Positions 19,257 to 55,556 of a stretch of DNA of 64,000 nucleotides are shown in pieces. The notes beneath the pieces are model-generated. The model was not told the DNA's origin. It saw nothing but the letters and a program-made list of their open reading frames with translations, and did not search any database. This DNA comes from the human T2T-CHM13v2.0 reference genome, Homo sapiens. Positions within the stretch are counted from its first letter, which is position 1. Every line of letters begins with the position of its first letter. The translations under genes and the position numbers were made by a program. The stretch is taken from assembly GCF_009914755.1 (NCBI RefSeq), contig NC_060928.1. The stretch is one strand, 5' to 3'.

Positions 19257-19533
19257 CAAATAGTGACAGGACCCCACACACCGTCCAGATGGTCAGAGAC
19301 ATGCCCACGCTGCCCGTGTTCTGGAGCACGCCCTTAGGAGAGATGAAGATTCCTGCTCCAATGATGGTGCCAATGATAATGGAGACTCCCCTCAGTAAAG
19401 TGACTTTCCTCTTCAGCTGCACTTTCTCCTGCCCAGGTGGCTCCTTGTTGCCCAGGGAAGGCAGCCTCCCGTTAACATTTCCCTGCAGGTAACCTCCTTT
19501 GGAGATGGTGGACACAACAGGCTTTCTGACCAT
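19257..19533 (-). CDS. SLC7A11: SLC7A11 (xCT) coding exon 1, 277 nt
   Basis: Translates [92 protein letters not shown](G), the xCT N-terminus with the LAT-family IIGAGIF TM1 motif. Strong Kozak context ACT-ATG-G. Donor TTTG|GTGAGT, phase 1. Confidence 0.98.
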
Positions 19534-19705
19534 AGTAGGGACACACGGGGGAAAAATAAAACAGAGGGAAAGAAAACAAAACTTTCAACTTTGGTGTCTC
19601 TTGGTGTTACTGATCGATGTCTTCCTCTGCTTTCAGACTGTCTCTCTCAGCGCTATAGTGTTCACAGGTGAAAACTCAAAGGTGTGCTTTTTCCTTCACA
19701 GCGAT

Positions 19706-19738
19706 CTAATTACTACTCAGAAACACCTGTGTATGCAT
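19706..19738 (-). other. uORF2 MHTQVFLSSN* (10 aa)
   Basis: ATG at 19738-19736 with A at -3 (ACG-ATG-C) and TAG at 19708-19706. Translation is not shown. Confidence 0.6.
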
Positions 19739-19745
19739 CGTGCTC

Positions 19746-19805
19746 TCAATTCTCCACCTCCTCGTTCCACCACTGCTGCTGCTGCTGCTGCTGCCGCCCT
19801 ATCAT
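19746..19805 (-). other. uORF1 MIGRQQQQQQQWWNEEVEN* (19 aa)
   Basis: ATG at 19805-19803 (GTA-ATG-A), then (CAG)7, then TGA at 19748-19746. The frame is visible; translation is not shown. Confidence 0.6.
19773..19793 (-). repeat. (CAG)7 trinucleotide repeat in the 5'UTR
   Basis: (CTG)7 on the + strand. Confidence 0.95.
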
Positions 19806-19829
19806 TACAAACCAGCTCAGCTTCCTCAT

Positions 19830-19853
19830 GGGCTTGTATTTAAGCGCCTGCCT
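19830..19853. promoter_or_regulatory. p53-like response element straddling the TATA box
   Basis: Degenerate RRRCWWGYYY half-sites GGGCTTGTAT (19830-19839) and AGGCAGGCGC (minus, 19853-19844), 4 bp apart. p53 is an established repressor of SLC7A11. Confidence 0.5.
19837..19843 (-). promoter_or_regulatory. TATA-like box TTAAATA
   Basis: Lies about -24 to -30 from the inferred TSS. Confidence 0.65.
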
Positions 19854-19881
19854 GTCACACCAACTTACTACAGCTAAATGA

Positions 19882-19908
19882 TGATGCAAATTCTCCAGGT
19901 TTGCATCA
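19882..19908. promoter_or_regulatory. Two inverted amino-acid response elements (AARE/CARE; ATF4-C/EBP)
   Basis: TGATGCAAA (19882-19890) and TTTGCATCA (19900-19908), 9 bp apart. Matches the established ATF4-responsive xCT promoter architecture. Confidence 0.9.
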
Positions 19909-19927
19909 GCCACATGAGAAGCCTCCA

Positions 19928-19940
19928 GCATTACTCAGCT
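19928..19940. promoter_or_regulatory. ARE/AP-1-like element (candidate NRF2-sMAF site)
   Basis: GCATTACTCAGCT contains TTACTCAGC, one mismatch from TGACTCAGC. SLC7A11 is an established NRF2 target. Confidence 0.5.
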
Positions 19941-22659
19941 CTTTTTTTTAAAAAAAGAAAAAAACAGGAGGAGCTTGTTGCTCAACTGACCTAAGCTTTT
20001 TAGAGAACAAAGCACACACTTTAAAGAGATTTTAGCCAATCCAGAAGTAGTAAATTCGGAACAGACCTTCCCAGAGATTTAAAGCAACTCGTAGTGAGCA
20101 ACAAAAGCTGTTCAAACAAAATGAAACAGGAAATAGTTACTTCATTTTAAGGAGTTTCTTTTTCTTTAATGCGTGTATAAAAACATTTTACATGCGACTG
20201 TTTTGTGAGTAGAATGTATCCTAAAGCTACATTGTTTATAACAACACAGTTTGAATTTCATAATTTGTGTAATGCTTTTTATTTTTTTATTTTGAGTTTT
20301 TTATAAGGCAATACAGTCAAATCCAATATTTACAAAATTAAAGATTCTACACTTTATACTTCTGTCACATACACACAACTATAAGCCTTCCTCAACATTA
20401 AAAGATAAAATTATTTCTTACTACTCATAATAAACCAGTATTTTAAATCACCATCCGAGTGTGACTAATACAAAATTCACCATGACTCCAGAAAATAGTC
20501 ATTTTCTGATTCTCATTAGCACTAGGTGATTTTTTTGAACTATGTAAAAGATACATATCCTTCATTGTCATGTTGTTCCTTTGAATTACCAAAAAAAATT
20601 TCTAAGTTCAAAATTACACAATTACAATTACATAAAAATATGTATATAGCAAAAGCCTGTAAAGGAAAACAGAATGGTAGTTATAGAAAGTAATGATATT
20701 ATGTATGACTTTTTTCCACATTATATAAACTATTGTTATTATTATAAATTTAAAATGCATTAAAAATGTAAGCTAAATTAAAATATTTACTTTGCAATAG
20801 TCAAAAAGGCAAAACATTTTTAAACCCTTCTAACTTTCTCAACCAAGTGTCAAGAAAAAACAAATATGAAAAGAAAAGAAATCCTAGATATCATTTTTGG
20901 CTATAGTTACATGTGGTTTTGGATTCAGTGAGAAGAATTGAATGTTATCATTACCCTGAAGCTACCTTTATACGCACCATTAAATAAGCTTCTGAACCTT
21001 TGAACAAAAACCACAAACAAAAAGCCTGTGTGCGAGAGGTTGGCAGGGAAAGAAGGGAGTCAAGTATGGTGAGGATGATCAAAGAAAGAAATGAGAAATC
21101 GCCATTAGGAAAGTAGCATGGAAAAGGTCAGAACCATTTTCTGTTATGTTGACACCTGAGAAAATGACACCACCTCAATGCTTTGCCATCCAAATAATTG
21201 AGGCTACATTTTCTCCTTTTTAAATTATCTATCTAAATTCTATATAATTGGTTTCAGCTACACCAAGTTAAAGTTTTTATAAAACCAAAATAAATACTTT
21301 TTCTCAGTTGTTAATGTCTTTCAAAAAACAAAAATGGATCATTTTCCTCATGCAATCCTGCTAAAACTCCCAAAGAAGGAAGCTAAATAGAGATTCTTTT
21401 CTTTCCAATTCTCTTCCTCCTCCTACATCTCCTTTCACTCACACAATTTTCCTGATTAATGGACCTAAGGAGCAGCTCTTCTTTCCCAGTAAGAGAAACA
21501 TATTAGCTCTGAAGAAATATGAGGTAAAAGTAGGACACTAGGAATCTCAGGGAACAGCAACTTTCTCTAATTAACACAGTGTCACACTTTAATTTTAAAT
21601 TTTGTTATAAATAACTGAACTCATAAGTTGAGCCAAAGACCCCACTCAGATAGGAAACTGAATGAATTATAAAGGATGATTATTCTTTCAATATTAAATA
21701 ACATTTTCCTCCTCACAGTATTTTTTTTTTAATTATGAAGAAAAATGGCTGATGTTAGACTAAAAACCAAAAGGATTGTACTTTCATGTAAGATAGAGGC
21801 CACCACTCAGAATGTTTGCAAAGCTGCACATTGCTGCTAAGGGCACCAGTGTACCTCTTCTAAGCACCCCAAAATCTGTAGAAAATGCAGTTTATAAAGA
21901 AAATGTTGAATTGCCTTGAACTCTTAAAATTGCCAGTTCTAAGCTTGTAAACTAAGAGTTTGGATGGTCCTCAAATACTTGTGTATCATAAAAATGTGTT
22001 CAAAGCAAATGAATACATATTTTTCATCCTGTATTAGGCCTTATTTTAAGTATAGCTGTCAAATTATGAGACTATCCTAGTGCTATTCGCAAATACTTAT
22101 TTACTGCTTATTGTGCACAAGAAATAGTCCTAGCTTCCTCACAGCATCTCGTAATAGAAATAGAAATAATGTATACTGGTAGCTACCGTTTTCTAGTAAC
22201 AATTTCTGTCCCATGGTTATAAATACAGGCATATCATCTAGGCCTGGCCAAAAATAATCCAGTGCTCTGGCTGCAGAGTATTGGAATATTACCTGAGCTG
22301 GGATATTTCTAAACAGAATTAGAATCAGCTTTTTTCATCTGTTGTTGGAGATTGTAAAGATGTGATCTGACAACAACTGGTGGCCATGTTCCCTGGCGTG
22401 TTGCAAATATCCTCACAGAATAACAGAGAATGTGCAGAAATTAGAGATATTCAGAAAGTCCTAGTACTATCATGCCCTATGTTAGTTCCTAAGGGACCCA
22501 GATTGGCTCGGGATCCTGAAGACCTTCATTTGCTTCTGTAAGCTACCTAGTTTCCTTGCTAGGTATGCTACCTAATAACACACACAAAAGTCAATTGCAC
22601 GTGGATCATGGAGCTAAATTTGAATGGTGCATCATGAACGCTTCTAGAAATGGGTCACC

Positions 22660-22875
22660 TGATATGATAATAATTAGTTACATGTGGTTATCAGCCCTTG
22701 AAATATGACTAGAACTTGAAGTCTTAAAGAAAAATAACAAAAAAGTTATTAACAATTTGTATTATTCATACTAGTTTTACCTATTTTATTTATTATTATG
22801 GCTACTAAAAATTAAAATCATATCCGTGGTTCAAAGTTGTGGCTTCCATTATAATTCTACTGGACAGTGCTGATC
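22660..22875. mobile_element. MER3/MER33-like hAT relic
   Basis: TAGTTACATGTGGTTAT...CTTGAAATATGACTAG...TACTGGACAGTGCTG. Confidence 0.55.
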
Positions 22876-23896
22876 TAGAGGAAAATGCAGAATATATTTC
22901 TAAACTTTGTGTAAGCAGGGATTTCTTAAAAGGGACACACAAAGCCCTAATACAAAAAAGAGAAAAATACAGTGTAATACATTAAAATTAAGATTTTGAG
23001 TTTATTGAAATATATTATTTGATTATAAAAGTGAATCTTAAAATGGGACAAAATATTTGCAATTTGCAAAGGTCTCATATCCAGAATAAATAATAAGTTT
23101 GTATAAATAGGAAAATGACAGACAACCCAATAAAAAATGGCCAAGAAATTTGAACAGATGCTCAATAAAATAGTCAATTCATTTGTAAAAAACTGCTCAA
23201 CAGTATTAGCTATTGGGGCAATTAAAACCGAAACCACAATAAGCCATCAATTCCCACTGAAATGGCTCACATGAGACAGACTGGCAATACCAGGAGTACT
23301 GACAGCATGGAGCAACCAGAATTCTTACACTGCTGGTGGGGGGACACAAATTGGTGCATCCATTATGGAAAGCTGTTTGGTGTTATCTTTTAAAGTTAAA
23401 CAGACACATACCCTTTGAACAAAAAAAACCCACTCCTGGGAATATGCCCAGTAAAAATGCAGGGCATCTATATGCCAAAAAGCTTGGATGAGAACATTCC
23501 TAGTACCTTTATTCATTTGAAAATAACCCAAATGTCCATTAACAGTACAACGGATATATGTATCATTGTATTTATTTAGTGAAATACTGCAATGCAATAA
23601 AAAAAAGGACGAACAATAGTGATATAAAAAAACAATATGGGTGACTCTCACATAATGTTAGAAGACAGAAGAAAAAAGCATATACTGCATGGTTCAATTT
23701 ATATAAAGTTTAAAAACAAGTGAAATGATTCTATAGTCTGAGAACTCTCTGGTTATCTTTGGAGATAAGCATTTCTAGTGATTGCGAGGGGGAACAAAAA
23801 CAGTTATAGAGTCCTGGTATTGTACTATTTTATAACCTGGGTAGTAATTACCTGAATATTTTAACTTTCTGACAATTCACTGAGATTTACATTTAT

Positions 23897-24241
<345 letters not shown>

Positions 24242-24611
24242 TAACTCAATTATTAAAAAAAAGCACAATAGTTGAAAATTTGTGATATTCTTTCAGAAAC
24301 AGATTGCTCAAGCAGACAAATAAGCAAAACTGTAGAAAATTTGGAGAGCATAATTAATCAACTCAATAGAGTTACTTTATAGAGAATTTCCCATCCACCA
24401 AATAAAAAATAAAGATTATTTTCAAGCATATATGAAACATTAACAAAACTATCCGTATCGAAGACAAAAATGAAACCCCAGTAAGTTCCAAAGAATCAAC
24501 ATTGTGTAAACTATACACTCTTACTATAAACATGCAACAAAATTAGAAATTAATAGTTATAAAACTAATAAAATAAATCTTATATGTCTGGAAATTAAAA
24601 ATCATACTACC

Positions 24612-24749
24612 AGCTGCGTGCAGTAGCTCATGCCTATAATCCCAGCATGAGGCTGAGGCAGGAGAATCGCTTGAGCCTGGGAGGCAGAGGTTATAGTGAG
24701 CTGAGATTGTGACACAGGGGGACTCTGTCTCAAAAAAAAAAAAAAAAAA
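24612..24749 (+). mobile_element. Monomer-length, internally deleted Alu
   Basis: Left-arm start joined to right-arm GAGGCTGAGGCAGGAGAATCGC, with poly(A) and TSD CATACTACCA. Confidence 0.8.
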
Positions 24750-25499
24750 CATACTACCAACTTATCTTTAAATTAGAAAATAGGCCCTGAGAAAAAATTC
24801 ACAAAATACTTAAAACTGAATAACAATGAAAACCATATGTTCAAATTTGTTAGAGTAGATTAAAGAAAACTTAAAGGAAAACTTAAAGCTTCAAGATACA
24901 TTCATCAGAAAATAAAAGAGGAAATGAGCTCAATATTCAACAGAAAAATTTAGGTAAAAACAATATAGTCAAAGAAGAAAAAAAGATAACTACAGAAATA
25001 AAAAAATTAAGAACAAAAGGGGAATAGAAAACATTCCCAATTGGAAAATCTAATTATTTAGAAAGAATAATAATTTAGATACAGGTTTGGCAAATGTAAG
25101 CAATAAAAAATTCGGAAATATATTAAATGTGAGTTTAAAAAAAGAGAAAATATCTTAAGAGAGCTAAAGAGAATTTTTAAATAATAAAGGAGTACAGTGA
25201 TCTACTATATGGAAAATAATGTGAAACTCAGAATAAAATGGACACATTTCTGGAAAATGAATCGATTCTATTACGTCATTAGAAAAAACAGAAAAACTGA
25301 ATGGAATGGCAACTATTTATGGTGCTAATCAAGGATATCCCTGGCTCAAAAAAATAAAACCAAACAAAACTAGGTTCTACTTGTGTTACAGGTAAGGCCT
25401 ACCACATTTTTATGAAATAAATAATCTCCTCCTTAGAGAAATTATTTCAGAAAGTGAAAACAGGAGGAAAAACTGCCAGACTCATTTTTGTGAGTTTAG

Positions 25500-25922
25500 T
25501 GCAGACATTGGCCTACTTCCTGTAAAAGGCCAAGTAGTAAATATTTTAGACTTTAAGGCTACCCATTGTCTCTGTCCATGTTCTGTGTGTCTGTGTGTTT
25601 GTGTGTGTGTGTGTGTGTGTGTTACAGCCCTTTAAAAATATAAACATTTTTCTTAGCTCCTGTGTAGTTCGCCAACTCTTTGTTTAGCAATATCTTAACT
25701 GCAAATAAGGCATTACAAGGTCAGTGCAATGGGCTAATGACAGGAAGTTTTATAAATAAAGTTTTATTAGAACATAGCCATGCCCACTCATTTATATATT
25801 TTCTATGGCTGCTTTCATATTACAACAGTAGAGTTGAGTAACTGCAAAAGAGACTGAATGGCCTGCCAAATAAGAAATGTTTATAATTTGCCTCTTTACA
25901 GAAAAAGTTCGCTGACTCTGGC
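25500..25922. mobile_element. MER58-like hAT-Charlie relics with (GT)n at 25585-25622
   Basis: CTGTAAAAGGCCAAGTAGTAAATATTTTAGACTTT and GTTTTATTAGAACATAGCCATGCCCA...TTTACAGAAAAAGTT. Confidence 0.7.
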
Positions 25923-26227
25923 TTAAGAGAAGATACAGGAATTGACTATTTATTTCCACTTTGATGTTCTCTCTTACTAGTAACTCTCTTTGCATATTCA
26001 GTGCTTGCTATTCCTACAAGATAGGAGTTAAAACAAAAAAACTGTGAAGCAAAAACTATTATGAAGAGAGTCATTGTACAGATAAAATATCTTTATGCAT
26101 CTAAGAACACAGCACAAAATATGTGAAGCACATACAATAAAATAACAAAGAAAATTTGATAAGCAAATGTTGAAAATTCAACACACTTCTCTCAATATTA
26201 AATCAATAGGAAAAAAATATTATCAAT

Positions 26228-26910
26228 TGTAGGTGATAGTTGATGTTCTATAGAGATTTTCTCATATCACTTTTCTTATTTCTGGGTATTTGTTCCTTAG
26301 CTTCTGTTTTTGCTTAAAAAGGCATACCTGCGACTCTCCTCAGAGGACGGCGCTTAGATTAACGGAGCCACTTTTCCCATGGGGGCAGAGAGTAGGGATG
26401 CCTGGGAGTTTACATCCCTTATGGAATGTTAACAGATGTTAACCGATCACTCCTTGATTTGAGAATATGACAGTCCAACATACTTGCCTTTAGTTGAGAC
26501 AATCTCCGGAGTTATTTTCCCAAGCTGCAGGATCAGGCTAGGCGTTTACCTGAAATTTTAGCTTTCTTTGTCTTTCCCGTCCGTGTTCTGCTTCCTGCAC
26601 TCCCTCCACAGTATTCATAGAAGCATTTCCTTATTTTGTGGTATTTTTTTTTTTTTAGAGAACTTGAATTAAGACAGTTGATATTGAACGTAGTCTAGAG
26701 TGCAGACTCAAAAAAATCTGTAGTTTACTGACTCACCTGCCAAATGGCAGTAACGAGCCCAACTCAAGTGACCAGCAGAGTATGGATAGCTGCTGTCAGG
26801 CTGCTGTATTGCAGTTACTAAGACTTTCACCTGGGATGAACTGGGATAGGGTACAGTTGAATAGGGATGAACTGCTTTGTGCATCCTCTAGTATTTGGGA
26901 ATATTACAGT
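26228..26910 (+). mobile_element. ERVL LTR16-like LTR followed by the start of internal sequence
   Basis: TGTAGG start, GCCTGGGAGTTTACATCCC and ...AATTAAGACA|GTTG end at about 26676. Family called by eye. Confidence 0.5.
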
Positions 26911-27326
26911 ACTCTTCTTAATCTTAGAGATAAGATAAAGAAATATATTGTCACCTCTATCATTTATCATTTTCTATGCATTAACTGCTAGAATTAGACA
27001 AGAAAAGGCATGAAGAAGGAAAAAAAGAGCACAAAAACTCATTATTTTATGATTACCTGGAAAAAATAAAACATTCAACAACAACAACAACAAAAATCTC
27101 TCCTACAATGAATTAAACCATTTTAAGATAATGTTTACAAATAAATAAATTTCCAAATCAGTACACTTTGTATATACAAACAAGTTACATGAAATATTGA
27201 AAGACGTCATACCATTTACAATAGCAACAAAGAATTTAAAAGCTAAGAATAAAATTAACAAGACATTTGTAAATTGTATATTTTTTAAAAACAGCTTGAC
27301 CAGATAGAAAGATATGTCATGCTTTT

Positions 27327-27620
27327 TTTTTTTTTTTTTGCGACGGAGTCTTGCTCTGTCGCCCAGGCTGGAGTGCAGTGGCGTGATCTCGGCTCACTGC
27401 AAGCTCCGCCTCCTGGGTTCACGCCATTCTCCCGCCTCAGGCTCCTGAGTAGCTGGGACTACAGGCGCCTGCCACCACGCCCGGCTAATTTTTTGCATTT
27501 TTAGTAGAGACGGGATTTCACCATGTTAGCCAGGATGGTCTCGATCTCCTGACCTCGTGATCCGCCCGCCTCAGCCTCCCAAAGTGCTTGGATTACAGGC
27601 GTGAACCACCGTGCCTGGCC
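27327..27620 (-). mobile_element. AluY with a ~59-bp flanking direct repeat
   Basis: CpG-rich AluY. Duplicated flank at 27268-27326 and 27621-27680. Confidence 0.93.
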
Positions 27621-28025
27621 TGTAAATTGTATATTTTTTTAAAAACAGCTTGACCAGATAGAAAGATATGTCATGCTTTTAGATAGGAATACTAATAACA
27701 TAAGTTGTCAATTTTTTAAGTTAATTTACAAATGGAACATAATACAAATAAACATGCCAAGAACATTTTTAACTAGGAAAAGTAATTCTACAATTATATG
27801 AAAATATTAACTTTTCGTGACTAAAAAACAAAGATTGAGAAAATACAAGGTCATCAAAATATACTACGATTTTTCAGTAATTAAAACCCGGTGGTGCAGG
27901 TACATTAAAAACAGAATCTAAAGACCAGAAATTGGCCCAAATAAATTTGGAATTTTATCTAACGATAAAAGTATCATCTCAAACCAGAGGGAAAAATATG
28001 AACTATTTAAAAATGATGTGAGGCT

Positions 28026-28432
28026 TGGTTATACACCATGGACTACTACGCAGCTGTATAAAAAAGAACAAAATCATGTCCTTTGTAGAAACACGGATGC
28101 AGCTGGAGGCCATTATTTTAAGCAAATTAATGCAGAAACAGAAAAGTAAATACCACATGTTCTCACTTATAAGTGGAAGCTAAACACTGAGTACACATAG
28201 ACATAAAGATGGGAACAACAGGTACGGGGGACTACTTTAGAGAAGAGGGACGGAGGAGATGGGGACTGAAAAGCTACCCATTGGCTACTATCGGTGACAG
28301 TTACTACCTGGGTGACAGGATCATTAATACCCCCAACACCAGCATCACAATATACCCATAATTTACCCATGTAGTAAACATGCACATGTGCCCCCTGAAT
28401 CTAAAACAAAAGCTAAAATTATTTTTTAATAA
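28026..28432 (+). mobile_element. L1PB-like 3' end inserted in older L1
   Basis: ATACACCATGGACTACTAC...AAATCATGTCCTTTG...CACATGTGCCCCCTGAATCTAAAA. Approximate TSD AAATGA(T/A)GTG. Confidence 0.8.
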
Positions 28433-28553
28433 ATGAAGTGGGGAAACCTACATAAACTGTTAGAAAAACATAAAGTTGAACTAATTGTTCATACCATACA
28501 ACAGAAATAAAATCATAATAGATCAAAGGTATAAATGTAAAAATAAAGTCACA

Positions 28554-28605
28554 AAAGTCCTATAATAAAACATGGTAGAAAGTCCTATAATAAAACATGG
28601 TAGAA
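28554..28605. repeat. Perfect 25-bp tandem duplication
   Basis: AAAGTCCTATAATAAAACATGGTAG twice. Confidence 0.95.
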
Positions 28606-29495
28606 TTCCTTTAGAGTCTAGAGTGCAAAAGGTTTATCTAACTGACACAAACTCTAGAAGCCACGAAAAAAAAGATCATTTTAACAAGATAAATTGTTGA
28701 AATCTTTCTGACAAAAAGAAAAAAATCATAAAGTCAAAACATAAAATCATAATGTCACAAAAATGTGATATATTTAAAACCACAGCCAAAGTCCTAGTCC
28801 TTTTAAATTTAACAAAGTTCATACAAATTGATAACAAAAAGATGAGCAACCTAACTGAAAATCAGCAAAGGATATTAATAAATTCTTCACAGAAAAAAAA
28901 TACATATGGCTTTTATACATATGCAAAGATGCTCAATCTTAATCATATTGAAATGCAATTTCAAAAATCAAGAATGTTCTCATTAACAAATAAGAGTTGA
29001 TCAAAAGGAGAAGCTTTCTTGAAGCAGCATATTCTGGCCCAACTTGGAATAATTTGAGCACTAAGAAAGATAATGATTGCAATGAATTATTATACATTTT
29101 TTAAATGATGAGTATAGTTTTATCAGAAGAGAGAAGGGAAAAAAGAAAAAGGAGGTTCTTTAAAGAATCACAGCTAATAAATGTAAAAGGAATGAAAGAA
29201 TTAGAAAATCAATGATTTTGCAATTCTATTCAATAATTGATTCAGACAAGCATCATAATGAGTGTGGAAACCTCTGAGTGAAATCTTATTAAAATAGAAA
29301 ATTTCACATACTTTTGAATTATTCATCCAAAGATCACTTATACATTTCAAAGGAAAGCGTACCTTTGTAAAAGGGAGATCTGATTGTCACCCTTAATTAA
29401 ATGACCAAAGCAAACATCACCAATACTGCCAGTTAACATAACCAATATTGATAACGCCATATACTTTATGTAAAATGCTTGCCAAAAATGCTTAC

Positions 29496-29863
29496 CCTGA
29501 ATCCAGTGATGAGAAAACAAAAGAATCCAAAAAATCCAGAATATGATAAAATCTATGCCACAATTGGCCTGGAATTTCCTCTCTCTCTTTTTCTTTCTTT
29601 CTTTTTTCCTTAATTCTGTTTGAGACAGAATCTCACTGTCACCCAGGCTGGCATGATCTCTGCTCACTTCAACCTCCATCTCCCGAGTAGCTGGGATCAC
29701 AGGAGCCCGGCACAATGCCCGACTCATTTTTGTATTTTTAGTAGAGATGGAATTTTGCCATGTTGTTCAGGCTGGTCTCGAACTCCTGACCTCAGGTGAT
29801 CCGCCTGCCTTGGCCTCCCAAAGTGCTGGGATTACAGGTGTGAGCCTCTGTGCCCGGCCTGGC
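29496..29863 (-). other. Candidate upstream alternative exon of SLC7A11 (5' boundary uncertain)
   Basis: Strong donor AGG|GTAAGC at 29496/29495. Upstream pyrimidine tract (about 29885-29915) with TTCCAG| at 29864. Confidence 0.45.
29578..29859 (-). mobile_element. AluS with internal deletions and GA-rich tail (sense to SLC7A11)
   Basis: Reverse Alu with a 13-bp TSD TGGCCTGGAATTT at 29565 and 29860. Confidence 0.88.
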
Positions 29864-31601
29864 CTGGAATTTTCAAAAACTCAGTGTAATAAAAAATAAA
29901 AAGGGAGAGAGAGTGTTCTAGATTCAAAATAACTAAAGGGATACAACAACCTAATGCAGTTTGTCAAACTTGATTGAACCCCAGATTTTTACATATATAC
30001 AATATATTTTGGAAAATTGAAAAAATATGAATAAGAATTGTATTTTAATTTATATATGGAATTATTAATTTTCTTAGATGTGACAATAAAATTGTGACTG
30101 CACAGGAGAATGTCATTATCTTTCAGAGATGCATGTGAAATACATATGGGTGAGGTGTCATAGTGTATGTAATTTGTTGCCAAATGATTCAGCAAAAATA
30201 TATGTAAAGATAAGTCAGATGCAGTAAACTATTACCGTTGCATCAGAGTTTATGATAGCAAAAGTTTGGAAAAAACATCAATATCCATCAAAAGGGAATA
30301 GTTAAATAATTATCAAATATAAAATGAAATACTAACCAGCTTTAAAAATTTGTTTTAATCTCGTAATGTAGTGGTATAGGTAAATTTCTAAAATATAACA
30401 TATCTGATATTAAGTAACAAAAGAAGGGCAATAATTGTGTGTGTGTGTGCATAAAGATAATTATGTAAAATCTCTGCATAGAAATTGAGCAGACAGGTGT
30501 AAAAGTAGGAGAAATGTTTTTAGTTTATACTTCTTTTTAATGCTGATATCTAACCTTTGTGAATGAATACCGATTTTAATAACCACAAAAATGTAACAAA
30601 CAATGAGGCAAGTGCCAAGAATGTAGAGAAAAGGTAGATAATGTAATAACAGAAATAGATTTAAACATAATGATGAGAAATAACAAATATGACAACTGTT
30701 TTTCTGAAAAGCTAATAAATTTAAGCATGTTTTTGGCAAGACAGCTCAAGATAAAGAGAGACAGTCATAAGAAAATCTTAAGAAAAAAATACAGGTAATA
30801 ACCAGTAACAAAGTACAGGTTTAAAAACCTTAATAAAGGGCCCAAATTCAGAACAATTTATTTTAAGAGCCAGATTAAATGGGCAATTTTCTAGAAAAAC
30901 CAATACTACCAAAATGACTCAAAAATAAATAGAAAATTGGAATATATTTTTAAATAGTTAGAAATTAATCAACGTTAAAAAGCTACATTTAACAAAATAA
31001 TCAACAAAAAGTAGACAGGTATTTTATAGCAGATGTCCACAAACATTTAAAGGACACATAATTCCTAACTTTTGCAAACTATTGCCAAAGTAGTAAAAGT
31101 AGAAAAACTCCCAATTCTTTTTTATTAAGCTATTGTAATTTTGATAACAAGTAATAGAAAAAGACAGTAAAAACATGGAAAAAGAAAGTACAGCCTTACC
31201 TAAAATGTAAATAAATGCATGCTAAAGTGTTAACAAAAATACTTAAAATATTGGCAAATCATATTTAATAATGCATTTAAAAATTCATAATAATCTAATA
31301 TGATATCTTAGAATAGAAAGATAATTGAACAATAGAAAATAAGCATAGTCCTTTGTGTATTATTTATATGCAATTTACTTGTATAAGTATAGAATTCACA
31401 ATTCCTATACTGGAATGTACATAATATGGAATTTACAATTTTTTAGAATCCTTTTATTGTGTAATTGTATAACCAAAAGATGGTAAAATGATAAATTTAT
31501 TTTATTTATAGTATATTATTATATATGCATATATTTTATTATATATGCATATATAAAAATATATATATTAACATATGCTATTAAACATTTTCTTAGAAAT
31601 T

Positions 31602-54381: not shown

Positions 54382-55556
54382 CTAAACTAATCTAGGCCAG
54401 ACTGGACTTTTTTCAATACAAAAGTGACAGGAAAGTTTTAAGTCTCCCATAAATCTCATTAAAGGGTGACAAGGAGAAAAAAAGTAAAAGAGTTTCATGT
54501 TTTTATGCCCCTCCAATTTCAGATTTTCTCAATAAGACAATTAAATATCCAGAGCTTGATAATTGAGTTCAACTCTGCATTGTTATTAATCCTATCTTAG
54601 TCCGTACAGAGTCATCATTACCATCCCTAGAAATAGATGCAATGAGCATTTCAGAATAATAGTTGTGACATTCTTTGAGGACAAATGCAAAAGTTTTGAT
54701 GTGGATTCTCAGACATCAGTGCAGGTTTGGGAAATACCGACAGCTGAGATGGTGCTGAAAATGAGAACTCTCCAGCCTCTCCTTTAAAGCCTCTGTGACA
54801 GACATAAAAGTGCTTGGCTGGATGTTTAAAGTGGGAATCTCATGAATGCATTCTTGATAAAGCTTGCTGAAGATGGTGATTCCTCTGCAGTTTCCAGGGA
54901 GCTCTTGTGAGAGAGGGATGTCTAGAAAGTGACATTTAAACACAAACTCAGAAACTGATTTTTCTTTAAAAAATTGAGCCTCTACCTATAGAAATAAGGA
55001 GAAAAAAATGTATAAAAGTGGCCGAAGTCTTACATTCTGACATCCCTCCCTAAAGTGTTTGGGCATGCCATAAAAGAAGCAGGCTCATCTAATAGAATGG
55101 GCAGAACAATGTATGCTATCCAGCTACTTGGGGAAACTCAGAAGGCACAAAAATACAGGGAATTCTGGACCTGTCCCAGGGAGACACTTTTCAGCCTTGA
55201 TTAGAATAGGTCATTGAGATGCTTAGAAGACTGATAGCTGATATGAAAAAGAAAGCACCTTTTCCTCTCTGTCCTAGGGACTGCAATGTGCCAAAAATGC
55301 CTCTACATGAAAAGATATAAGAAATATCATGAGAGAGCTGTAGGAATAAAATGTTTAAAGATATATCAGAAGGAAAGGAAAATAAATTCTCCACATATAT
55401 GTCATGGTTATAAACTTTGCTCTAAAACGATGTCCAAAAAGCGATTAAAGATAGCAGAAATGGTAACCAGGTTCAACTGACAAAAGTTGTTGTTGAGGCC
55501 ATAGTTAACATCTTTGAAGGCAGGCACAAGCTGCAGGAATAACAAAGGAAGCCTAC

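What the first reader, a model, noticed from the sequence alone, without database searches (positions are those of the whole stretch)
19413..29863. Upstream Alu-containing exon could splice into the xCT CDS, delete the start codon and encode a 98-114 aa alternative-frame peptide
Seen: a near-consensus donor AGG|GTAAGC at 29496/29495 lies inside the ORF 29727-29347 (-). An acceptor-like site ATGGTCAG|AAAG at 19526/19525 lies 8 nt into the xCT CDS, behind a long pyrimidine tract. Joining them is phase-compatible (CAG G|AA AGC). From the ATG at 29679 this gives [98 protein letters not shown] (98 aa; 114 aa from the ATG at 29727; stop TGA at 19415-19413). The peptide has a Lys/Arg block from the Alu tail, a hydrophobic F/I/W segment, and a C-terminus read from exon 1 in a non-xCT frame. 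In the xCT frame, the upstream exon has a TGA and no later ATG, so this mRNA could make xCT only from a downstream Met (M78) or a near-cognate codon. Inference: a TE-derived transcript that uncouples SLC7A11 RNA from functional xCT (probably NMD-sensitive) and may yield a tumour-restricted neo-peptide. I have an unverified recollection of a very similar peptide from tumour cDNA collections, so it may be described but unannotated.
Basis: partly seen in the sequence, partly recalled or inferred. Interest (0 to 1): 0.8.

Follow-up and report, generated by a model that had tools for sequence, protein, structure and literature searches.

The report
Hypothetical Alu exon upstream of SLC7A11
The motifs are all there, and the splice acceptor just inside the xCT start codon is real and already annotated with a different upstream exon, but nothing shows that the donor next to the Alu is ever used, so the proposed 98-residue peptide remains a paper construct.

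Summary
The two splice sites are not equally supported.

- **Acceptor at 19525:** it is genuine. It is the first AG after a 54-nt AG-free, 81% pyrimidine tract. RefSeq already uses it, joined to a different first exon (26328-26425; table supplied with the finding). AUG-deleting SLC7A11 transcripts are therefore annotated.
- **Donor at 29496:** it is a good motif, but 12 other GTs in the 44.5 kb upstream score the same or better. That count is near chance expectation (13 observed, 8.4 ± 3.1 in surrogates).
- **The Alu:** it is an ordinary sense-oriented copy with a 13-bp target-site duplication. It supplies no splice site, and four T-runs would stop its own Pol III transcript before the donor.
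- **The ORF:** 49 of 76 donor-like sites give an ATG-started ORF across a virtual join to 19525.
- **Literature:** nine searches, a long-read study and the held supplements of four TE-transcript catalogues show no such exon.

RNA-seq junction data, the decisive test, could not be reached. Verdict: an annotated acceptor plus a chance donor. Low interest.

The parts
19526..19579 (-). AG-free pyrimidine tract ending in the acceptor AG (19527-19526). It lies in the 5'UTR and the first codons of SLC7A11 exon 1.
   Evidence: 38 of 47 pyrimidines at -50..-4 and 54 nt without an AG. The previous AG-defined position is 19581.
19257..19525 (-). Shortened exon 1, as used by other RefSeq SLC7A11 transcripts. 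It starts 8 nt after the A of the xCT ATG.
   Evidence: Hub annotation table (exons of other transcripts 19257-19525). Sequence read.
19531..19533 (-). Canonical xCT start codon, removed by use of the 19525 acceptor.
   Evidence: Exon-1 translation is identical to PDB 7epz_B over query residues 2-92.
26328..26425 (-). Annotated alternative first exon (donor CAG|GTATGC) that joins to 19525. It lies in single-copy sequence.
   Evidence: Hub annotation table.. The only genome match of 26250-26850 is itself.
19413..19478 (-). 21-codon ORF in the non-xCT frame of exon 1 (ATG 19478, TGA 19415-19413).
19300..19302 (-). ATG of xCT Met78, the first in-frame AUG left once 19525 is used.
29491..29498 (-). 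Donor-like motif AGG|GTAAG (exon end 29496). It is unannotated.
   Evidence: PWM score 5.76, rank 13 of 2294.
29514..29551 (-). Four runs of at least 4 T between the Alu and the donor. These are Pol III termination signals.
   Evidence: T-runs at 29551-29548, 29534-29529, 29522-29519, 29517-29514.
29578..29859 (-). Alu element, in sense orientation relative to SLC7A11, with an A-rich tail at 29612-29578.
   Evidence: 13 other copies in the window at 73-83% identity. Metazoa_SRP similarity at 29742-29858, 37.2 bits, E 6.9e-8. Tail shown.
29860..29872 (-). Upstream copy of the 13-bp target-site duplication. It contains the acceptor-like CCAG|G (exon start 29863).
29565..29577 (-). Downstream copy of the 13-bp target-site duplication.

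Best explanation
Three unrelated things lie in the interval.
1. A genuine latent 3' splice site inside SLC7A11 exon 1. The 5'UTR ends in a long AG-free pyrimidine tract, and the first AG after it falls in codons 2-3 of xCT. Any transcript that starts upstream of the normal promoter and carries a donor will therefore tend to splice to 19525 and lose the AUG. RefSeq already records this from a first exon at 26328-26425. That mRNA offers only a 1-codon ORF, an 8-codon ORF, a 21-codon out-of-frame ORF and then Met78. A Met78 start would lack the first hydrophobic segment of xCT, so the mRNA is effectively non-coding for functional xCT (inferred).
2. An ordinary old sense-oriented Alu insertion, 10 kb upstream.
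3. A GT in unique AT-rich DNA, 69 nt past the Alu's downstream target-site duplication, that resembles a donor about as often as chance allows.

The 29496-to-19525 junction and its 98/114-aa peptide are a virtual construct. If the junction occurs at all, it is splicing noise on rare upstream read-through transcription, not a defined isoform.
For: - The acceptor is annotated (hub table) and structurally strong: 38 of 47 pyrimidines, 54 nt AG-free, and only 1 of 587 AGs in the virtual intron equals it.
- AUG content of the annotated alternative mRNA.
- Donor: 13 of 2294 upstream GTs reach its score, against 8.4 ± 3.1 in surrogates. A textbook CAG|GTGAGT at 26737 is better and nearer.
- 49 of 76 donor-like sites give an ATG-started ORF across the same virtual junction, so an ORF is not evidence.
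- The Alu is in sense orientation with a perfect 13-bp target-site duplication and supplies no splice site. Four T-runs precede the donor.
- No GC-rich stretch lies upstream.
- No Pfam family reaches its cut-off.
- Long-read sequencing in UMRC6 cells showed a single SLC7A11 transcript with rare alternative forms (PMC12127883, passages).
- Described splice variants are internal exon skips (PMC13705330, passages).
- SLC7A11 does not occur as a TE-initiated or TE-chimeric gene in the held supplements of four catalogues. Three have 0 occurrences and one has only SLC7A11-AS1.
- Only 1 of the 40 listed TE papers mentions SLC7A11, and only in its introduction.
Against: - The donor scores above all 7 annotated donors in the window on my rough matrix (5.76 against 2.89-5.29).
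- Its partner acceptor is truly good.
- The upstream edge has an acceptor-like CCAG|G behind 35 of 47 pyrimidines, though an AG lies only 14 nt upstream of it.
- The ORF it sits in is one of only 3 ORFs of at least 126 aa in the window, and 0 of 40 surrogates had three.
- LINC00498 lies upstream on the same strand and could feed read-through transcription (hub table).
- I had no RNA-seq junction, CAGE, Ribo-seq or EST data.
- The catalogues cover limited samples, and one supplement file was cut when stored.
- The matrix frequencies are recalled. MaxEntScan and SpliceAI were not run.
Confidence: 0.78

Rival explanations
1. A Pol II transcript containing the Alu (exon about 29863-29496) is made in some tumours or NRF2-high cells. 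It splices to 19525, is NMD-sensitive, and is translated into the 98/114-aa chimeric peptide, a possible neo-antigen.
For: - All motifs and frames are as stated.
- The donor motif is as good as real donors, and the acceptor is real (hub table).
- The stop lies 156 nt upstream of the next junction.
- SLC7A11 mRNA rises when NMD factors are depleted (PMC11507897 and PMC6680220, passages).
Against: - There is no annotated or published exon here and none in the held supplements of four TE catalogues.
- The donor is at chance level and junction ORFs are generic.
- No promoter-like composition lies upstream.
- The Alu's own Pol III transcript would stop at T-runs before the donor.
- One preprint found that UPF1 knock-down did not lengthen SLC7A11 mRNA half-life, and its authors suggest the rise is indirect (10.1101/722702, passages).
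Confidence: 0.07
2. Acceptor-sink model. 19525 captures all transcription that initiates upstream of the promoter: the 26425 start, LINC00498 read-through, and occasionally the 29496 donor. The result is a class of AUG-less SLC7A11 RNAs that inflate RNA counts without making xCT and may be regulated. The Alu-adjacent donor would be a minor member.
For: - The acceptor's architecture, and the annotation of one such transcript (hub table).
- The annotated variant's AUGs give only 1-, 8- and 21-codon ORFs before Met78.
- A same-strand lncRNA lies upstream (hub table).
Against: - Long reads in UMRC6 show essentially one transcript (PMC12127883).
- No paper that I found discusses 5' variants of SLC7A11.
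- Abundance and regulation are unknown.
Confidence: 0.12
3. In-frame variant. The same ORF read on to the donor-like AAG|GTACGC at 29363 and joined to 19525 stays in the xCT frame without a stop. It would give xCT with its first three residues replaced by a 121-residue N-terminal extension.
For: A frame calculation and an open reading across the join. PWM score 4.95, within the range of annotated donors.
Against: It is purely virtual. A one-in-three frame coincidence is unremarkable: in 22 of 76 virtual joins the longest junction ORF is in the xCT frame. There is no transcript evidence, and the ORF has no family.
Confidence: 0.02

Closest known systems
RefSeq alternative SLC7A11 transcripts using first exon 26328-26425 joined to 19525 (hub annotation, RS_2025_08)
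   Same: Identical acceptor, and the same consequence: the xCT AUG is lost and the next in-frame Met is M78. The same out-of-frame reading of exon 1 ends at TGA 19415-19413.
   Different: The upstream exon is single-copy, not Alu-associated, and lies 3 kb nearer. Its AUGs give only 1-, 8- and 21-codon ORFs, not a 98-aa chimera.
Alu exonization (recalled from the literature: mostly antisense Alus, whose poly-T and internal sites become the acceptor and donor)
   Same: An Alu would sit inside an alternative exon of a protein-coding gene's transcript.
   Different: This Alu is in sense orientation and provides neither splice site. The acceptor-like site is in the flanking target-site duplication, and the donor is in unique DNA 69 nt beyond the downstream duplication.
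TE-initiated chimeric transcripts / onco-exaptation
   Same: The proposed outcome is a TE-containing 5' exon spliced into a cancer-relevant gene, with a possible tumour-restricted peptide.
   Different: There is no evidence of a start site in or near this Alu. The Alu's own promoter is Pol III, and T-runs precede the donor. SLC7A11 is absent from the held supplements of four catalogues.
Unproductive splicing coupled to NMD (AS-NMD)
   Same: The virtual mRNA has a stop 156 nt upstream of an exon junction.
   Different: The isoform itself is undemonstrated. The NMD sensitivity of SLC7A11 is not attributed to a 5' isoform in the passages I read, and one preprint calls it indirect.

Membership tests
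Alu SINE | 7SL-derived sequence | tested here: met
   Rfam RF00017 Metazoa_SRP at 29742-29858 (-), 37.2 bits (below the gathering score of 70), E 6.9e-8.
Alu SINE | High-copy dispersed repeat of about 280 bp with an A-rich 3' tail | tested here: met
   13 other copies in the 64-kb window at 73-83% identity. The element is 29859-29578, with its A-rich tail at 29612-29578.
Alu SINE | Target-site duplication flanking the insertion | tested here: met
   A perfect 13-bp direct repeat at 29872-29860 and 29577-29565.
Alu exonization | At least one splice site of the exon lies within the Alu | tested here: not met
   The donor at 29496 is in unique DNA. The acceptor-like AG at 29865-29864 is in the flanking duplication.
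Alu exonization | The exon is observed in spliced transcripts | not testable with these tools
   No RNA-seq or EST resource is available. The exon is not in the RefSeq table, and none was found in the literature.
TE-initiated chimeric transcript | A Pol II transcription start inside or at the TE | tested here: inconclusive
   No CAGE data were available. There were 0 occurrences of SLC7A11 in the held supplements of a RAMPAGE TE-TSS atlas and a long-read CAGE study. GC is 0.24-0.37 upstream. T-runs would end a Pol III transcript.
AS-NMD isoform | A termination codon more than 50-55 nt upstream of a downstream exon junction | tested here: met
   The stop ends at 19413 and the exon-1 donor is at 19257, a distance of 156 nt. 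This holds for the virtual mRNA only.
AS-NMD isoform | The isoform exists and is stabilised by NMD inhibition | not testable with these tools
   No expression data were available. The primary paper on SLC7A11 and NMD (PMC4433865) is not held.
Annotated SLC7A11 5' variant (acceptor 19525) | The same acceptor coordinate as the RefSeq exon 19257-19525 | tested here: met
The sequence was read.
Annotated SLC7A11 5' variant (acceptor 19525) | The same upstream exon (26328-26425) | tested here: not met

The most novel reading that the evidence does not exclude
In tumours with transcription entering from upstream (LINC00498 read-through or a cryptic start beyond 29863), the 29496 donor pairs with the strong latent acceptor at 19525. 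This would yield a recurrent, NMD-sensitive, AUG-less SLC7A11 RNA. Its Alu-started ORF would be translated into a basic, hydrophobic 98-aa peptide presented as a tumour-restricted antigen, and it would contribute to a mismatch between SLC7A11 RNA and xCT protein.
Probability: 0.06. Interest if true: 0.45.

Novelty: already known. Interest (0 to 1): 0.12.

Why it matters
SLC7A11/xCT RNA level is widely used as a proxy for ferroptosis resistance. Transcripts that enter exon 1 at 19525 cannot make full-length xCT, so if they were abundant they would mislead such read-outs. That concern applies to the isoform RefSeq already annotates, and it is worth a junction-level look in expression compendia. 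The Alu-linked version adds only a speculative peptide. As it stands it is ordinary: a good acceptor, a chance donor and a common repeat.

Tried and rejected
- **Papers not held:** two TE-oncogene/antigen catalogue papers recalled by DOI, and the primary SLC7A11-NMD paper PMC4433865.
- **Literature searches that found nothing on a 5' SLC7A11 exon:**
  - alternative first exon: 17 papers, 2 opened
  - TE chimeric transcript: 5 papers, 1 opened
  - isoform names: 3 papers, all opened
  - LINC00498: 2 papers, listing only
  - TE vocabulary: 220 papers, 40 listed
  - uORF: 79 papers, 15 listed, 1 opened
  - cryptic exon: 18 papers, 12 listed
  - alternative promoter + CAGE: 5 papers, 4 listed, listing only
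- **Whole-genome protein search** with the 61 upstream residues: 9778 first-look candidates, 150 scored, and 3 weak matches besides itself. This was too shallow to count Alu-encoded look-alikes, so I draw nothing from it.
- **Pfam:** one sub-threshold hit (NADH_B2, 15.1 bits against a cut-off of 25), treated as chance.
- **Idea rejected:** that the annotated first exon is TE-derived. The region 26250-26850 matches only itself in the genome.


Full report
**1. The observation**

On the minus strand the sequence reads TTCAGG|GTAAGC, with the last exon base at 29496. At the other site it reads CTATGGTCAG|AAAGCC, with the first exon base at 19525, 8 nt after the A of the ATG at 19533.

- Joining 29496 to 19525 by coordinates gives an open frame of 98 codons from the ATG at 29679, or 114 from the ATG at 29727. 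It ends at TGA 19415-19413.
- In the xCT frame the upstream stretch contains stops and no later ATG. The next in-frame Met is M78 (ATG 19302).
- Ten of twelve residues at positions 24-35 are K/R and are read from the A-rich Alu tail (29612-29578). The most hydrophobic 19-residue window, residues 38-56, has a mean Kyte-Doolittle value of 1.87.
- The exon-1 translation is identical over query residues 2-92 to the cystine/glutamate transporter chain 7epz_B.

**2. The acceptor is real and already annotated**

The table supplied with the finding lists 'exons of other transcripts 19257-19525, 26328-26425'. RefSeq therefore already joins a different first exon (donor CAG|GTATGC at 26328) to exactly this acceptor.

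The structure explains why. The 5'UTR ends in a tract with 38 of 47 pyrimidines at -50..-4 and no AG for 54 nt. The AG in codons 2-3 is the first one after it. Of 587 AGs in the virtual intron 29480-19526:
- 49 are YAG with at least 13 of 20 pyrimidines at -23..-4 and at least 12 nt AG-free upstream;
- only one (26987) also matches the long tract.

By inference from the usual first-AG rule, any upstream-initiated transcript carrying a donor should land here.

A Met78 start would lack the hydrophobic segment that precedes it in exon 1. That this is transmembrane helix 1 of the transporter fold is recalled knowledge, not tested here.

**3. The donor is not distinguishable from chance**

I used a rough position-weight matrix whose frequencies are recalled and serve only for ranking.
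- The candidate scores 5.76. The seven annotated donors in the window score 2.89-5.29.
- 13 of the 2294 minus-strand GTs between 19534 and 64000 reach that score, counting the candidate. Thirty first-order Markov surrogates give 8.4 ± 3.1.
- A textbook CAG|GTGAGT lies at 26737, nearer to exon 1.

**4. The ORF is not evidence either**

I made the same virtual join for all 76 GTs that score at least as well as the weakest annotated donor.
- 49 give an ATG-started ORF across the junction.
- For 22 of these, the longest such ORF is in the xCT frame.
- Among the other 27, the candidate's 114 aa is the second longest.

It is long because it starts in a 126-aa unspliced ORF (29727-29350). That ORF is one of three of at least 126 aa in the window, against 0.62 ± 0.73 in 40 second-order surrogates, none of which had three. 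This is a real oddity against a homogeneous null. However, about 50 of its codons are Alu, and it matches no Pfam family above cut-off (best 15.1 bits against 25).

**5. The Alu**

- The element at 29859-29578 is in sense orientation on the gene's strand.
- Its left arm matches SRP RNA (RF00017, 37.2 bits, E 6.9e-8).
- It has 13 relatives in the window at 73-83% identity, and a perfect 13-bp target-site duplication at 29872-29860 and 29577-29565.
- It supplies neither splice site. The acceptor-like CCAG|G at 29863 belongs to the duplicated flank and has an AG only 14 nt upstream. The donor lies 69 nt beyond the downstream duplication.
- Four runs of at least 4 T at 29551-29514 precede the donor. 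By established knowledge of Pol III termination, an Alu-promoted transcript would end before the donor.
- GC content is 0.24-0.37 from 29700 to 31299, so there is no promoter-like island.
- The non-Alu part (29347-29571) is single-copy in the genome apart from two short weak matches. The annotated first-exon region 26250-26850 matches only itself.

**6. Literature and catalogues**

- No paper found describes a 5' alternative exon, a TE chimera or a cryptic exon of SLC7A11 (searches; passages).
- PMC12127883 (passages) reports long-read sequencing in UMRC6 cells with a single transcript and rare alternative forms. It also reports seven NCBI-predicted variants, described only by their 3' differences.
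- A review (PMC13705330, passages) describes an exon-4-skipped SLC7A11-S isoform.
- The held supplements of four TE-TSS or TE-chimera studies contain no SLC7A11 entry. One lists an AluSz6 in SLC7A11-AS1, a different gene, and that file was cut when stored.
- SLC7A11 is used as a natural NMD target (PMC11507897 and PMC6680220, passages). One preprint found that UPF1 knock-down did not lengthen its half-life, and its authors suggest an indirect effect (10.1101/722702, passages). The primary paper was not held.
- bioRxiv supplements, and any PDF supplements, were not visible and might list junctions.

**7.

This could not be tested, because no EST, nr or patent database is on hand. Within this window:
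- The 34 Alu-derived residues find 8 alignments at E ≤ 0.01, in 5 other Alu copies, at 37-43% identity.
- The 27 non-Alu residues find nothing below E 0.05 except themselves.

A whole-genome search scored only 150 of 9778 candidates and is uninformative. Resemblance through the Alu part is a plausible source of the recollection, by inference only.

**8. Verdict**

What is really there is an annotated latent acceptor that deletes the xCT AUG, an ordinary sense-oriented Alu, and a chance-level donor. The Alu-linked exon and its peptide are unsupported, but they are not excluded, because junction-level RNA data were out of reach. For that test, the T2T coordinates are donor chr4:141,575,496 and acceptor chr4:141,565,525.

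Noticed in passing
window 29363 (-), with ORF 29727-29350: A second donor-like site, AAG|GTACGC (matrix score 4.95), lies near the end of the same ORF. It would join to 19525 in the xCT frame with no stop, a virtual 121-residue N-terminal extension of xCT. There is no transcript evidence.
   Followed up: partly
window 26737 (-): The best donor consensus in the 44 kb upstream of exon 1 is CAG|GTGAGT (score 9.44). It lies 312 nt upstream of the start of the annotated alternative first exon (26425), in single-copy DNA. It might mark a longer or alternative 5' exon.
   Followed up: no
window 19773-19793 (-): A (CAG)7 microsatellite lies in the SLC7A11 5'UTR, just downstream of the annotated transcript start at 19813. 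It shows as seven AGs at a 3-nt period.
   Followed up: no
window 19478-19413 (-): A 21-codon out-of-frame ORF sits inside xCT exon 1. It becomes the third AUG-started ORF on the annotated AUG-less transcript and could be checked in Ribo-seq ORF catalogues.
   Followed up: no
window 19097 (+, 131 aa), 19505 (+, 112 aa), 34238 (-, 128 aa): These are other long ATG ORFs in the window. Two lie antisense to the exon-1/promoter region. One lies at 34238-33855 on the gene's strand and has no Pfam match.
   Followed up: partly
window 54563-54921 (-): The last exon of LINC00498 lies on the same strand, 25 kb upstream of the Alu and 35 kb upstream of SLC7A11 exon 1. Read-through from it is the most obvious source of any transcript crossing 29496. 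Only 2 papers mention this lncRNA, seen as a listing only.
   Followed up: no
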